A stretch of DNA of 63,958 nt, counting the filler, from Octopus bimaculoides (taxonomy: Eukaryota): NCBI RefSeq assembly GCF_001194135.2. It is 5 parts of 5 records of this genome, joined end to end, with 100 filler letters (N's around TTAATTAATTAA, not from the genome) between each part and the next. Parts side by side here need not be neighbours in the genome. Positions count along the whole stretch, not along the records: positions 1 to 17,054 come from NC_068988.1; positions 17,155 to 28,478 come from NC_068982.1; positions 28,579 to 51,046 come from NC_068985.1; positions 51,147 to 62,734 come from NC_068984.1; positions 62,835 to 63,958 come from NC_068998.1. One strand, given 5' to 3'. Numbering within the stretch: position 1 is the stretch's first letter; each line of letters opens with the position of its first letter. Shown here in pieces: positions 2,601-62,884 of this stretch. The translations under genes and the position numbers were made by a program. The notes beneath the pieces were generated by a model that worked only from the letters and a program-made list of their open reading frames with translations, was not told where the DNA came from and searched no databases.

Positions 2601-4615
2601 NNNNNNNNNNNNNNNNNNNNNNNNNNNNNNNNNNNNNNNNNNNNNNNNNNNNNNNNNNNNNNNNNNNNNNNNNNNNNNNNNNNNNNNNNNNNNNNNNNNN
2701 NNNNNNNNNNNNNNNNNNNNNNNNNNNNNNNNNNNNNNNNNNNNNNNNNNNNNNNNNNNNNNNNNNNNNNNNNNNNNNNNNNNNNNNNNNNNNNNNNNNN
2801 NNNNNNNNNNNNNNNNNNNNNNNNNNNNNNNNNNNNNNNNNNNNNNNNNNNNNNNNNNNNNNNNNNNNNNNNNNNNNNNNNNNNNNNNNNNNNNNNNNNN
2901 NNNNNNNNNNNNNNNNNNNNNNNNNNNNNNNNNNNNNNNNNNNNNNNNNNNNNNNNNNNNNNNNNNNNNNNNNNNNNNNNNNNNNNNNNNNNNNNNNNNN
3001 NNNNNNNNNNNNNNNNNNNNNNNNNNNNNNNNNNNNNNNNNNNNNNNNNNNNNNNNNNNNNNNNNNNNNNNNNNNNNNNNNNTATATATATATATATATA
3101 TATATATATATATGGTGTGAGAGATAGATAGCTACAAATATAGACAAACACACACAAATATGTATATATGTGTGTTTGTGTATTTGTGTGTCAGTGTGTA
3201 TTTGTTCTGTGTGTGTATGTGAGAATTTGTGCTTGCGTGTGCACTTGCTTAAACGATGGCAATATATACATGAATATAAATGATGAAGAAATCTAAAAAT
3301 TCATTGAACTATGCTAGGGATTATTTAGTGAAAATAAGTGAGTGGTCGACAATGAAGAAAAATAAACTGAGTACTCAAATTTGTTTGAAGCTCTTAATCT
3401 CTTTGGGAAATATATACTTTATTAAATATAAGGAAGAAATTAATCATGATCAACAAAACAGCAGAATCGCCTGCCGGTGATGACATTTTGCGTAAACTCA
3501 GATTTTAGGTACTTTTTCATAAAAGAGTAGAAATTCCTAAAAGATAGAGTCAATTAACAAGCAAATGTGAATTATTGCAATATTTTCTGATTATCCATAT
3601 TCATTGGCATTAGCTTAACTATTTTGCTACATTCTCACCTGCATTTCTAGCATTTTAAATATATTTATATAACTTGTTGTGGATATATATATATATATAT
3701 GAGTGTGTGTGTTTGTGTGTGTTTGTATGTGTTTGTGTGTGTGCATATATATGAAATGCATATATATATAAATCTATATAGTTGAAAAATTACGTTGTAG
3801 GTATAAATGTACCATAATCAAGTATAAAAAGTATATATATCTATATATATGTATATATATTTATATATAGATGTATATATATATATATATATATATATAT
3901 ATNNNNNNNNNNNNNNNNNNNNNNNNNNNNNNNNNNNNNNNNNNNNNNNNNNNNNNNNNNNNNNNNNNNNNNNNNNNNNNNNNNNNNNNNNNNNNNNNNN
4001 NNNNNNNNNNNNNNNNNNNNNNNNNNNNNNNNNNNNNNNNNNNNNNNNNNNNNNNNNNNNNNNNNNNNNNNNNNNNNNNNNNNNNNNNNNNNNNNNNNNN
4101 NNNNNNNNNNNNNNNNNNNNNNNNNNNNNNNNNNNNNNNNNNNNNNNNNNNNNNNNNNNNNNNNNNNNNNNNNNNNNNNNNNNNNNNNNNNNNNNNNNNN
4201 NNNNNNNNNNNNNNNNNNNNNNNNNNNNNNNNNNNNNNNNNNNNNNNNNNNNNNNNNNNNNNNNNNNNNNNNNNNNNNNNNNNNNNNNNNNNNNNNNNNN
4301 NNNNNNNNNNNNNNNNNNNNNNNNNNNNNNNNNNNNNNNNNNNNNACAGAGAGAGAGAGAGCGAGAGACAAATAAACATGGAAAGAAGAATAACTCCATG
4401 TACAGAACAACAGCTTAGCGTTCTAATTATTAGAGCAACAAGAAACACGGAATATGAAATATGAAGTATATGATATATACTATATTATATATAATATATT
4501 ATTTCATATTGCAGGAAAAATATATATTATGTTTTATTATATCAGAGAAAAAATCAAAAAACAGGGAGAACTCAAGTCATTTAGAAGAATTTAATTAGGG
4601 TAAGGTGAAATTGAA

Positions 4616-4691
4616 GTCTTTTAGCTGTTTTGGGGATAACCCACGTGGTTGAGTAGCATGCCTATGCACTGGGTATTATGTCATCAGAGAC
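4616..4691 (-). ncRNA. Type I hammerhead-ribozyme-like motif, degenerate (long stem II family)
   Basis: Minus strand reads GTCT-CTGATGA-C-(ataatacccagtg...cacgtgggttatcccc)-AAAAC-AGCT-AAA-AGAC. Same 76-nt length as the 29821 copy, but G12 and the GUA cleavage triplet are mutated. Shares the downstream flank ttctaaatgacttgag. Confidence 0.7.
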
Positions 4692-4811
4692 AAAGTAAAA
4701 GTGGTTTTCTAACTAGTTTTACTCTTTATTCTTCAACTTATTGCCTGATAATCTGTGAATTTTATTTCTCGTAAGCTGTAAATTTTCCAAATATCAATAG
4801 GACGTCAACAT

Positions 4812-5000
4812 ACCGGTATTTCGCCTGTCGTTACGTTCTGAGTTCAAATTTCGCCGAGGTCAACTTTGTTTTTCATCCTTTCGGGGTCGGTTAAATAAGT
4901 ACCGGTTACTCACTGAGGTTGATGTAATCGACTTAATCTCTTTGCCTGTCCCTGTTTGTCCCCTCTGTGTTTAGTCCCCTTGTGGGCCATAAAGAAATAA
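4812..5000 (+). mobile_element. Meta-domain-like SINE, 5' truncated
   Basis: ggtatttcgcctgtcgttacgttctgagttcaaatt (B box), then ttttcatcctttcggggtcggttaaataagtaccgg, then the tail tagtccccttgtgggccataaagaaata. Confidence 0.75.
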
Positions 5001-6521
5001 AATTAATGTCCTGCTTGTTAAAATTTTATTTATTTGTGCAGCTGAAGAGAGCACTGCATTTAAATTGATGTAATGATTGCATTGTTCAATTAAATGGAGC
5101 CGCTTGAAACGGTCGTACTGCATCACTATTTGATATCCTGTTGCTTATTTTGATTTCATTCACCTTACTTCGAGCTGTGCAGATAATACTGGACTGACTT
5201 GGTGTTCAACTTAAGTACGTAATTCACCTAAATCTCAATTGTTTCTGATTTATATATATAAAGATTGATAGACAGATAGATGTGTGTGTGTGTCTGTGTG
5301 TGTTTGTGTGTGTGTGTGTGTGTGTGTGTGTGTGTGTNNNNNNNNNNNNNNNNNNNNNNNNNNNNNNNNNNNNNNNNNNNNNNNNNNNNNNNNNNNNNNN
5401 NNNNNNNNNNNNNNNNNNNNNNNNNNNNNNNNNNNNNNNNNNNNNNNNNNNNNNNNNNNNNNNNNNNNNNNNNNNNNNNNNNNNNNNNNNNNNNNNNNNN
5501 NNNNNNNNNNNNNNNNNNNNNNNNNNNNNNNNNNNNNNNNNNNNNNNNNNNNNNNNNNNNNNNNNNNNNNNNNNNNNNNNNNNNNNNNNNNNNNNNNNNN
5601 NNNNNNNNNNNNNNNNNNNNNNNNNNNNNNNNNNNNNNNNNNTATTGCAATAAATCAGTGATACGTGTGATTTTTTTCATTAAAAAAATATAATTCAAAA
5701 TTTTTTCTTAGTATATTATTTGAATAACCTAACGATGCGTTCAATTTTCCCTAATAGTTTTCATAGAATATTTTGTCACACTTTTCACGTCGTCTTCTTT
5801 CTACAGCTATAAAATTTCTGCGATGAATTATATTCCGGTAAACCAATGTATTTTTTACTAATTTTGTGTCCCTACAATTTATTTTTTTCATGTAGCTATC
5901 TTTGTATGGATGAATAAGGACACCACAATCGCCGTGTTATCTTCGCGTATTTTTCCATGCAAATCAAAACAAACTGACGTGTGAAGTTTTTCTGTATCTC
6001 CACCAGGTGAAAACGTACTACAACTTAAATTTTTTCTTTATTTTCCTGTATTTTCCTGTTAGTGTTTCTATACCATTCTATAGACTACATTTTATCACCG
6101 TACTCCAACCACAATTCTGCCGAGATTGAATACCATAAACTCCATGTCATAAAATGTGTTATTGGTTTTCATCACTAGTTTCGGGACTGTGCTGATACCG
6201 GATCCCCGCATTGAAATATTTTTAGTCGAATGAATCGACCCCAGATATCTGATCCTTTCTGAAACTTGATAAGTGAGCGAATTGTGTCATGGGTTGTAAT
6301 CAAAATGCGGAATTTGTATTGAATCTGTGGGTTCTCTTTTTAGTTCATATCAAAATCAACTTTAACACCCATAATTTCGAGTAAGAGTAACAAATTGAAA
6401 GTTGAGAGCAGTAAACGGCTCAAAAGGTAAAGCCTGTTTTATGTGTATATGCATGTTTATATGAATATATATATAAGAATACACGCACGTATATGTATAC
6501 TCTTTGCTATTTATATATATA

Positions 6522-6598
6522 TACGATGGGCTTCTCTCAGTTTCCATCTACCAAATTCACCCACAAGGCTTTGGTCGGCCCAAGGCTATAGTAGAAAG
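6522..6598 (-). mobile_element. CORE-like SINE fragment
   Basis: tacgatgggcttctctcagtttccatctaccaaattcacccacaaggctttggtcggcccaaggctatagtagaa; same family as 52958-53388. Confidence 0.75.
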
Positions 6599-61560: not shown

Positions 61561-62004
61561 ACATGCATACAAACATAAGTACTCTATCTATCTATCTATC
61601 TATCTATCTATCTATCTATCTATCTATCTATCTATCTATCTATCTATCTATCTATCTATCTATCTTTCTGTCTGTGTGTTTGTCTGTATATATATATATA
61701 TATATATATATANNNNNNNNNNNNNNNNNNNNNNNNNNNNNNNNNNNNNNNNNNNNNNNNNNNNNNNNNNNNNNNNNNNNNNNNNNNNNNNNNNNNNNNN
61801 NNNNNNNNNNNNNNNNNNNNNNNNNNNNNNNNNNNNNNNNNNNNNNNNNNNNNNNNNNNNNNNNNNNNNNNNNNNNNNNNNNNNNNNNNNNNNNNNNNNN
61901 NNNNNNNNNNNNNNNNNNNNNNNNNNNNNNNNNNNNNNNNNNNNNNNNNNNNNNNNNNNNNNNNNNNNNNNNNNNNNAGCTTAACGCTCGGGAAGTCAGA
62001 AAGT

Positions 62005-62040
62005 CTTTTACGTTTCCACCCTACGCTCTTCGACAGAAAG
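62005..62040 (-). ncRNA. Minimal hammerhead-like motif, degenerate
   Basis: Minus strand CTTT-CTGTCGA-A-GAGC(GTAG)GGTG-GAAAC-GTA-AAAG. Stem II has two mismatches and core position 6 is T. Flanks are homologous to the 54958 copy. Confidence 0.6.
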
Positions 62041-62594
62041 GAACACAGAAATTTACAGGGAGAGAAAATTAAAAAAACCGGTTAGTGGCTAGAGATCTAT
62101 CATGGCGAATGCTAGAGAGAAGAGTCACACATGAGAGCTAGGAAGAAGGGGAGATAATAAAGTTGTGGTAATCCCAAAACGAAGGTGCACGTGCGTGTGT
62201 GTGATAGCGTGTATATGCGTGTAGAAGGGGGATGGTGTGCGTGTGTGCATGTGTGAGTGTGTACATGTGTAGGTGTGTGGATGATGAATGGGTGCTGGAA
62301 AGTGGCCAGTAATAGTGTGTGCGCTGGTGTGTTACTGGGAAGTGGTCAGTGCTAGTGTGTGCGCTAGTGTGGGTGCTGGGAAGTGGATGATCAAAATATC
62401 AGAATTTTAACCTACATAGATCTACGCAGGATTGCACCTCAAGACTTATGCATTTGTTTCTACAACATACGAAAGTTGAACTATGAAATTTTATGCTTCT
62501 TTTTTCTTCTCTCTCTTCATCTTATTCCCTTACTCTTCTATGTCGTCGTTCCATTAATATATACTCTTCTCAGTTTTCCCATCTTCCTCTATTT

Positions 62595-62649
62595 CTGTCT
62601 GATGACGGAATACCCATACTCTGATATATCCCAGAAAAAGGTGTAAGAC
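62595..62649 (+). ncRNA. Type I hammerhead-like motif, degenerate (long stem II family, internally deleted)
   Basis: CTGATGA-C-ggaatacccatactctgatatatccc-A-GAAA-aaggt-GTA-AGAC; downstream atgacttgag...tttgttgtcct as in the 29821 copy. Confidence 0.65.
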
Positions 62650-62884
62650 TGAATTTTTTTCCAATAATAATAATGTATATGACTTGAGTTGTTTGCTTTG
62701 CCTTAACGTTTGTTGTCCTCTTTAACAATTTTATNNNNNNNNNNNNNNNNNNNNNNNNNNNNNNNNNNNNNNNNNNNNTTAATTAATTAANNNNNNNNNN
62801 NNNNNNNNNNNNNNNNNNNNNNNNNNNNNNNNNNTATATATATATATATATATATATATATATATATATATATATATATGTATG

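What the first reader, a model, noticed from the sequence alone, without database searches (positions are those of the whole stretch)
4470..62735. Dispersed non-coding repeat family built around the long-stem hammerhead (3 copies in 64 kb): retrozyme-like or PLE pseudo-LTR
Seen: 4616-4691 (minus), 29821-29896 (plus) and 62595-62649 (plus) share CTGATGAC, ATACCCA, TATCCC, a GAAA-like segment and TAAGAC/AAAGAC, plus a homologous downstream flank (ATGACTTGAG about 30-35 nt later). The middle of stem II differs between copies but stays largely self-complementary in the two long copies. No ORF is attached to any copy. Inference: three copies per 64 kb would imply a very high genomic copy number. 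The unit could be a solo PLE pseudo-LTR or a non-autonomous ribozyme retroelement (retrozyme-like) mobilised by the PLEs also present here. Tandem copies elsewhere would be expected to yield circular RNAs.
Basis: partly seen in the sequence, partly recalled or inferred. Interest (0 to 1): 0.72.

Follow-up and report, generated by a model that had tools for sequence, protein, structure and literature searches.

The report
Hydra-type Penelope retrotransposon hammerhead ends
The three repeats are broken-off tail ends of an old jumping gene (a Hydra-type Penelope retrotransposon) that left thousands of decayed copies, each carrying a predicted self-cutting RNA motif; this is a known arrangement, not a separate circular-RNA parasite.

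Summary
The motifs are real type I hammerheads at the stated coordinates, but they are not a non-coding family. Walking upstream through genomic copies leads from the hammerhead across about 0.85 kb of 3' UTR into a GIY-YIG endonuclease, thumb and reverse transcriptase with the motifs of Hydra-clade Penelope-like elements (PLEs). Single loci carry ORF remnants and hammerhead together (L196, L194, L193, L206). The window copies are 5'-truncated ends of three subfamilies on three different contigs; only two subfamilies have the long stem II. The density argument fails: the window is a pack, and a 517-kb sample gives about 6 fragments per Mb, not 55 (roughly 4,000-12,000 copies). Of 68 loci, 26 have an inverted partner and none has a credible head-to-tail tandem. 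RNA-seq shows no circle joints and no ends at the cleavage site. Copies decay about neutrally; stem II covaries only between sister families. One unusual trait: two 3' ends about 140 nt apart, one used by each arm in 18 of 19 classifiable inverted pairs, against a published tail of 30-40 bp. Earlier notes of this scan report PLE hammerhead ends on other DNA of this genome.

The parts
29682..30138 (+). Copy B: 5'-truncated 3' end of a Hydra-type PLE (subfamily B), running to the distal 3' end (E2) and into (TA)n
   Evidence: 85.8% to the subfamily B majority over positions 1291-1728; G000 C5:24.099 Mb; a thumb+EN-bearing member is L206
29821..29896 (+). Intact type I hammerhead motif: 4-bp stem I, CUGAUGA, extra C, 47-nt stem II region, extra A, GAAA, palindromic stem III, GUA triplet; predicted cleavage after 29892
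   Evidence: sequence; alignment and pair counts
29995..30138 (+). About 144-nt optional 3' extension ('tail') between the proximal end E1 and the distal end E2 (start approximate)
   Evidence: 3' end histogram; inverted pairs
4530..4696 (-). Copy A: short 3' fragment (subfamily A) that ends near E1 (low end approximate)
   Evidence: an RT+EN-bearing member of this subfamily is L196
4616..4691 (-). Decayed long-stem hammerhead: GAAA reads AAAA and the cleavage triplet is lost; predicted inactive
   Evidence: sequence
4707..4762 (+). Inverted 5'-truncated piece of the same element, head-to-head with copy A
   Evidence: 83.9% to positions 1323-1378 of the B majority, E = 5e-11
62384..62734 (+). 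Copy C: 5'-truncated 3' fragment of subfamily C, ending at E1 right before an assembly gap
   Evidence: 86.5% to the subfamily C majority; gap seen in L296; RT+EN-bearing members L194 and L193
62595..62649 (+). Short-stem hammerhead of subfamily C with damaged stems I and III; likely inactive
   Evidence: sequence against the subfamily majority

Best explanation
The three motifs are hammerheads in the 3' ends of 5'-truncated, decayed copies of Hydra-type Penelope-like retrotransposons, likely inserted by the elements' own reverse transcriptase-endonuclease, with the hammerhead predicted to cut only as a dimer. Shown: ORF remnants (RT, thumb, GIY-YIG) lie upstream of the same hammerhead at other loci; 3' ends are fixed and 5' ends ragged; inverted partners are common; copies are several thousand and about 9% from their majority. 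Inferred mechanism: the protein nicks an AT-rich microsatellite and starts reverse transcription inside its own RNA at two TA-rich sites about 140 nt apart, one for each target end. Synthesis usually stops early, which leaves solo ends or head-to-head pairs in which one arm carries the tail. Stem III is a palindrome with no room for a loop, so two hammerheads would pair through it to cut after GUA in the master's RNA. The genomic copies are dead on arrival and have no shown function.
For: Upstream walk gives EN with CxCx5C, CxxC and CxH, thumb and YRDD, DKT and RMRWR. These match the Hydra definition in PMC8557442 section 11 and Fig. S7 text. An intact 806-aa database relative (P0001) aligns in order across RT, thumb and EN in L192, L193, L194 and L196 (best E 1e-91 to 1e-48). 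The hammerhead follows on the same strand in L193, L194, L196 and L206. First-look candidates fall from 1,809 for the 3' query to 168, 208 and 87 for upstream queries. 26 of 68 loci have an inverted partner. 18 of 19 classifiable inverted pairs use E1 on one arm and E2 on the other. Stem III palindrome duplex -13.1 kcal/mol. Published Hydra hammerheads have the same stem III and unpaired bases flanking stem II (File S2).
Against: No intact full-length copy and no 5' pLTR were found; every ORF seen is broken or truncated. No tree with reference PLEs was built. The elements are longer than published Hydra families (4.3-5 kb by L196 against under 3 kb). Only 23 of 45 copies that reach E2 have four or more TA units right at the end; many others end in CA, CT or mixed microsatellites. 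Cleavage is untested, and RNA-seq showed no ends at the site. Pfam support is weak: GIY-YIG E = 0.0009, below its cut-off, and no RT family hit.
Confidence: 0.92

Rival explanations
1. A non-LTR retrozyme: a short non-coding unit in tandem arrays that is cut into monomers, circularised, and mobilised in trans by PLEs.
For: Type I hammerhead, high copy number, most copies without ORF. One locus (L027 = L209) shows a 249-nt direct duplication holding the hammerhead. Retrozymes are argued to derive from PLE pLTRs (bioRxiv 10.64898/2026.07.22.740005, abstract and first part read).
Against: The L209 duplication is 99% identical, shares private changes and is split by a 10-N gap, which points to an assembly overlap. 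The only other direct flag (L222) is a short overlap at an inversion junction; 2 of 68 flagged in all. No fixed unit length. Homology runs on into an ORF. No unit-length back-joints in three RNA runs; reads lie in both directions and 73-82% run on into unrelated sequence.
Confidence: 0.03
2. Most short copies come from a short non-autonomous derivative of this Hydra lineage (3' UTR only) copied in trans, not from truncation of full-length RNA.
For: Starts cluster 100-200 nt upstream of the hammerhead (41 of 86 at positions 1200-1399). Short copies outnumber ORF-bearing ones by roughly ten to one in first-look counts.
Against: Starts spread without a gap from position 0 to 1600. That set is biased by the queries. 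Each of the three subfamilies has ORF-bearing members. No shared internal deletion was seen in the alignments.
Confidence: 0.04
3. The copies are kept by the host as functional structured RNAs.
For: Core positions differ a little less than flanks (6.4% against 9.0%, p = 0.07). Family reads occur in RNA.
Against: Stem II positions differ more than flanks (12.2%, p = 0.0002). Only 16 of 27 unselected copies keep an intact core. One window copy has lost its core and another has damaged stems.
Confidence: 0.01

Closest known systems
Hydra-clade PLEs (Craig et al. 2021, PMC8557442; section 11, Files S1-S2 and Fig. S7 text read), e.g. Hydra-1_Obim, Penelope-1_NV
   Same: RT followed by C-terminal GIY-YIG EN; RW(K/R), DKT, CxCx5C, CxxC and CxH motifs; sense-strand type I hammerhead near the 3' end with palindromic stem III; TA-rich targets; inverted 5'-truncated partners.
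   Different: Not Hydra-1_Obim: its hammerhead and EN differ, and two motifs of this family were absent from that supplement. 3' UTR of 1.17 kb with the hammerhead 855 nt after the stop. N/T-rich linker. Length over 4 kb. Stem II region of 47 nt in subfamilies A and B against at most 24 nt in File S2.
Minimal hammerheads of metazoan PLEs (Cervera and de la Pena 2014, PMC4209133; parts 1-2 of 4 read)
   Same: Short helix I, long helix II, extra base after A9, palindromic helix III, mostly solo motifs from truncated PLEs, predicted dimer activity.
   Different: An extra A also lies before GAAA (a C-A or A-A apposition, as listed for PLE-X1_cBra in File S2). Helix II is longer than the 7-8 bp reported.
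PLE tail and internal RT initiation (Arkhipova et al. 2013, PMC3846280; anole Poseidon in vitro study, PMC11167929; passages read)
   Same: Head-to-head pairs with an optional extension on one arm, explained in the anole element by two internal RT start sites. N-rich ORF inserts are also described in the rotifer elements.
   Different: The tail is about 140 nt here (144 in B, 139 in C) against 30-40 bp in the passages read.
Metazoan non-LTR retrozymes (Cervera and de la Pena 2020, PMC7229834; parts 2-3 of 6 read)
   Same: Type I hammerhead, thousands of copies, low GC.
   Different: No tandem arrays, no unit length, own ORF, non-canonical helix sizes, no sign of circles.

Membership tests
Hydra-clade PLE | RT followed by a C-terminal GIY-YIG endonuclease in one ORF | tested here: met
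   Colinear RT-thumb-EN in L192, L193, L194, L196; frames are broken in these old copies
Hydra-clade PLE | RWK motif and DKT in place of DKG | tested here: met
   RMRWR in L196 (R for K; one copy only), DKT in L192, L194, L196
Hydra-clade PLE | CxCX5C linker; CxxC and CxH around the conserved E and N; no CCHH | tested here: met
   Majority translation and natural copy L071, read by eye against Fig. S7 text
Hydra-clade PLE | Sense-strand hammerhead near the 3' end | tested here: met
   102 and 246 nt from the two 3' ends
Hydra-clade PLE | Insertion into (TA)n | tested here: met
   23 of 45 full 3' ends run straight into (TA)4 or more; many others into mixed microsatellites
Hydra-clade PLE | Generally shorter than 3 kb (descriptive, not diagnostic) | tested here: not met
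   L196 spans about 5 kb with insertions, at least 4.3 kb without
Hydra-clade PLE | Placement in the Hydra clade of an RT tree | not tested
Hydra-clade PLE | 5' pLTR in full-length copies | tested here: inconclusive
   All five long copies inspected are 5'-truncated; Hydra-1_Obim is also listed without pLTR
Type I hammerhead (PLE minimal type) | CUGANGA, GAAA and NUH in order with stems I-III | tested here: met
   Copy B and all three subfamily majorities; degraded in copies A and C
Type I hammerhead (PLE minimal type) | Compensatory changes in the stems | tested here: met
   Two stem II pairs change on both sides in sister family D (U-A to A-U, A-U to G-C; one lineage). 83% of cells paired, 0 of 500 shuffles; pairs with double change 36 of 500; a slide of -3 scores as high on covariation. 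17 of the 20 rows carry the exact 16-mer, 15 of them selected by it
Type I hammerhead (PLE minimal type) | Self-cleavage | not testable with these tools
   No read ends piled at the site; libraries not suited to it
Non-LTR retrozyme | Tandem repeats of 150-450 bp, each with a hammerhead | tested here: not met
   0 credible of 68 loci
Non-LTR retrozyme | Non-coding and non-autonomous | tested here: not met
   The family continues into RT-EN
Non-LTR retrozyme | Abundant linear and circular monomer RNA | tested here: inconclusive
   No unit-length back-joints in three raw-read runs of one study, about 6% of each read; small circles may be lost in such libraries

The most novel reading that the evidence does not exclude
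This Hydra lineage uses two reverse-transcription start sites about 140 nt apart, four times the published PLE tail, both ending in TA-rich sequence that can pair with the (TA)n target, with one site serving each arm of an inverted insertion. With hammerheads whose stem II grew from about 19 to 47 nt and a young sister family with a U4C core, it is an undescribed variant that records the two-ended priming step in thousands of genomic copies.
Probability: 0.45. Interest if true: 0.45.

Novelty: new member of a known kind. Interest (0 to 1): 0.27.

Why it matters
It removes a retrozyme candidate and adds several families to the thinly sampled Hydra clade. The strict pairing of the two 3' ends in inverted insertions is a clean genomic readout of the poorly understood PLE priming mechanism. 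The sister families form a natural series for testing how far stem II and the core of a PLE hammerhead can vary.

Tried and rejected
Rfam scans: no hammerhead family among the matches listed. Repeat finder on the whole window: swamped by microsatellites and N runs. Target-site duplications: none evident in flanks read by eye; microsatellite ends hide them. Tandem at L209: rejected as a likely assembly overlap. The window's other PLE fragment as mobiliser: other type. A Hydra-like thumb remnant at 6802-7068 as the body of copy A: rejected, only 26-30% alike with no DNA homology between. Identity with Hydra-1_Obim: rejected. Run search: no RNA holder listed. Selection on copies: not found. One paper on dimer cleavage of PLE hammerheads, whose DOI I recalled, is not held, so nothing is taken from it. 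Search of earlier findings by sequence: nothing. The host looks like an octopus from its microsatellite load; this is a guess that steered literature terms and was not tested.
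Full report
Observation. The window is a pack of five stretches. The three motifs are at the stated coordinates and sit in three different stretches, which map to contigs C8, C5 and C4 of G000. Copy B reads as a type I hammerhead: 4-bp stem I, CUGAUGA, one extra C, a 47-nt stem II region, one extra A, GAAA, a palindromic stem III and a GUA triplet. 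Copy A has lost GAAA and the triplet. Copy C has a shorter stem II and damaged stems I and III. Folding of single copies is weak evidence (z -1.88, +0.09, -2.78). No hammerhead family is among the Rfam matches listed (150 of 173 shown).

Copy number. A 16-mer from the 3' half has 2,020 exact matches, control 0. Of the first 30 by position I read 15 as A/B- or C-type, 6 as family D and 9 as others. Among 27 copies found through upstream queries, 7 keep the 16-mer, which gives about 3,900 copies; that set leans to long, well-kept copies. Sixty 10-kb stretches at round positions on large contigs (517,074 non-N bases) held 3 fragments, 5.8 per Mb (1.2-17), or about 12,000 genome-wide. The window has 55 per Mb. 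The family is abundant, but roughly ten times or more rarer than the window suggests.

What it belongs to. The 30 best loci for copy B share a fixed 3' end and have ragged 5' ends. Four searches walked upstream. They passed through a pyrimidine-rich 3' UTR into a GIY-YIG endonuclease with CxCx5C, CxxC and CxH, an N/T-rich linker, a thumb and YRDD, DKT and RMRWR. These are the features listed for Hydra-clade PLEs in PMC8557442 (section 11; supplement passages). An intact 806-aa relative from an unnamed assembly aligns in order over RT, thumb and EN of L192, L193, L194 and L196. The hammerhead follows on the same strand in L196 (A type), L206 (B type, thumb and EN only), L193 and L194 (C type). 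Pfam adds little: GIY-YIG at E = 0.0009, under its cut-off, and no RT family. No tree was built, and no intact or pLTR-flanked copy was found among the five long copies inspected. The family is not Hydra-1_Obim. The PLE fragment at 23234-23746 has another endonuclease type.

Arrangement. Of 68 loci from three searches (two short contigs left out; L226 and L227 are one insertion), 26 have an inverted partner and 2 were flagged as direct. L027/L209 is a 99% duplication across a 10-N gap with shared private changes, likely an assembly overlap. L222 is a short overlap at an inversion junction. Copy A itself has an inverted piece at 4707-4762. 3' ends fall at two sites: 14 of 86 at 1580-1589 and 48 of 86 at 1720-1728 of the B majority. 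Of 28 inverted-pair rows away from locus edges, 18 use E1 on one arm and E2 on the other, 1 uses E1 twice, none uses E2 twice, and 9 have an arm that ends elsewhere (some loci give two rows). The gap is 144 nt in B and 139 nt in C. The tail in the passages I read is 30-40 bp (PMC8557442; PMC11167929; 31 bp in PMC3846280). I did not see a longer one there; five searches listed no paper on these families, but I read only parts of seven papers, and Repbase and Dfam were not searched.

Structure and selection. Within subfamily B the hammerhead decays like its flanks: core 18 of 282, non-CpG flank 619 of 6,890 (p = 0.07), stem II 142 of 1,160 (higher, p = 0.0002); 16 of 27 keep an intact core. Between families the picture differs. 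B and C keep core and stems I and III identical while flanks are about 73% alike. Families D, E and F share the 3' half but have 19-20-nt stem II regions; D has EN upstream, a CCGAUGA core and 408 exact matches to a 17-mer. Two stem II pairs change on both sides in D. On 20 rows 83% of cells pair (0 of 500 shuffles), but pairs with double change are reached by 36 of 500 shuffles, one slid control scores as high, and 15 rows were chosen by the 16-mer. This supports a fold kept in active lineages, not in copies.

RNA. Three raw-read runs of one study (about 6% of each read) and one contig set were laid on copy B, and the three runs on a C-type copy. Family reads are present at modest depth in both directions; very few are 99% alike to either copy; 73-82% run on into unrelated sequence. 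There is no pile of ends at the cleavage site and no unit-length back-joint; the joints seen are strand switches, one 106-nt skip and one 38-nt step back outside the hammerhead. Strandedness and size selection are unknown, so this does not exclude small circles.

Mechanism. Shown: element anatomy, truncation, inversion, two 3' ends, decay. Inferred from PMC11167929 and PMC4209133: the element's protein nicks AT-rich DNA and primes inside its RNA at two sites; both ends here are TA-rich, so pairing with the target is plausible. Early stops give solo ends and head-to-head pairs with the tail on one arm. The stem III palindrome (duplex -13.1 kcal/mol) predicts cutting as a dimer. In the anole element cutting was not needed for insertion in vitro, so the ribozyme's role stays open.

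Verdict. New families of a known kind: Hydra-type PLE 3' ends with hammerheads. Not a retrozyme. Earlier notes of this scan (read after this reading was formed) describe similar PLE ends on other DNA of this genome; I did not check their sequences. Interest is low to moderate, resting on the long tail and the stem II series.

Noticed in passing
window 23234-23746 (-): C-terminal fragment of another PLE type: GIY-YIG (Pfam E = 2e-6) with a C-x4-C-x2-C linker and CCHH-like residues, cut by a gap; by these motifs Neptune-like (label from PMC8557442 features, not tested).
   Followed up: partly
window 5036-5123 (+): A separate long-stem hammerhead candidate (CUGAAGA, 57-nt stem II region, 6-bp stem I). 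A similar motif lies in L199 near a Hydra-like endonuclease remnant on the other strand.
   Followed up: no
window 6802-7068 (-): Old Hydra-like thumb remnant, 26-30% alike to this lineage and to P0001/P0003.
   Followed up: partly
window 60020 (-), 60618 (-), 61244 (+): Three further CUGAAGA...GAAA motifs, possibly decayed minimal hammerheads of other repeats.
   Followed up: no
L282:1500-3040 and L297-L308: Young sister family D (91-99% alike near the hammerhead, 408 exact 17-mer matches) with a CCGAUGA core, A-A apposition, EN upstream, and two 3' ends about 150 nt apart.
   Followed up: partly
tail region, window about 30080-30100; L297: A short motif (AGCACTTAC) is kept in the tails of families B, C and D although the surrounding sequence differs; possible protein-binding or priming signal.
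   Followed up: no
window 29560-29670 (+): End of a different, far more abundant repeat directly upstream of copy B; it draws 20-30 times more RNA reads than the hammerhead region.
   Followed up: no
window 12749-13246 (-) and 15219-15587 (-): ORF remnants that look like Tc1/mariner transposase N-termini (likeness recalled, not searched).
   Followed up: no
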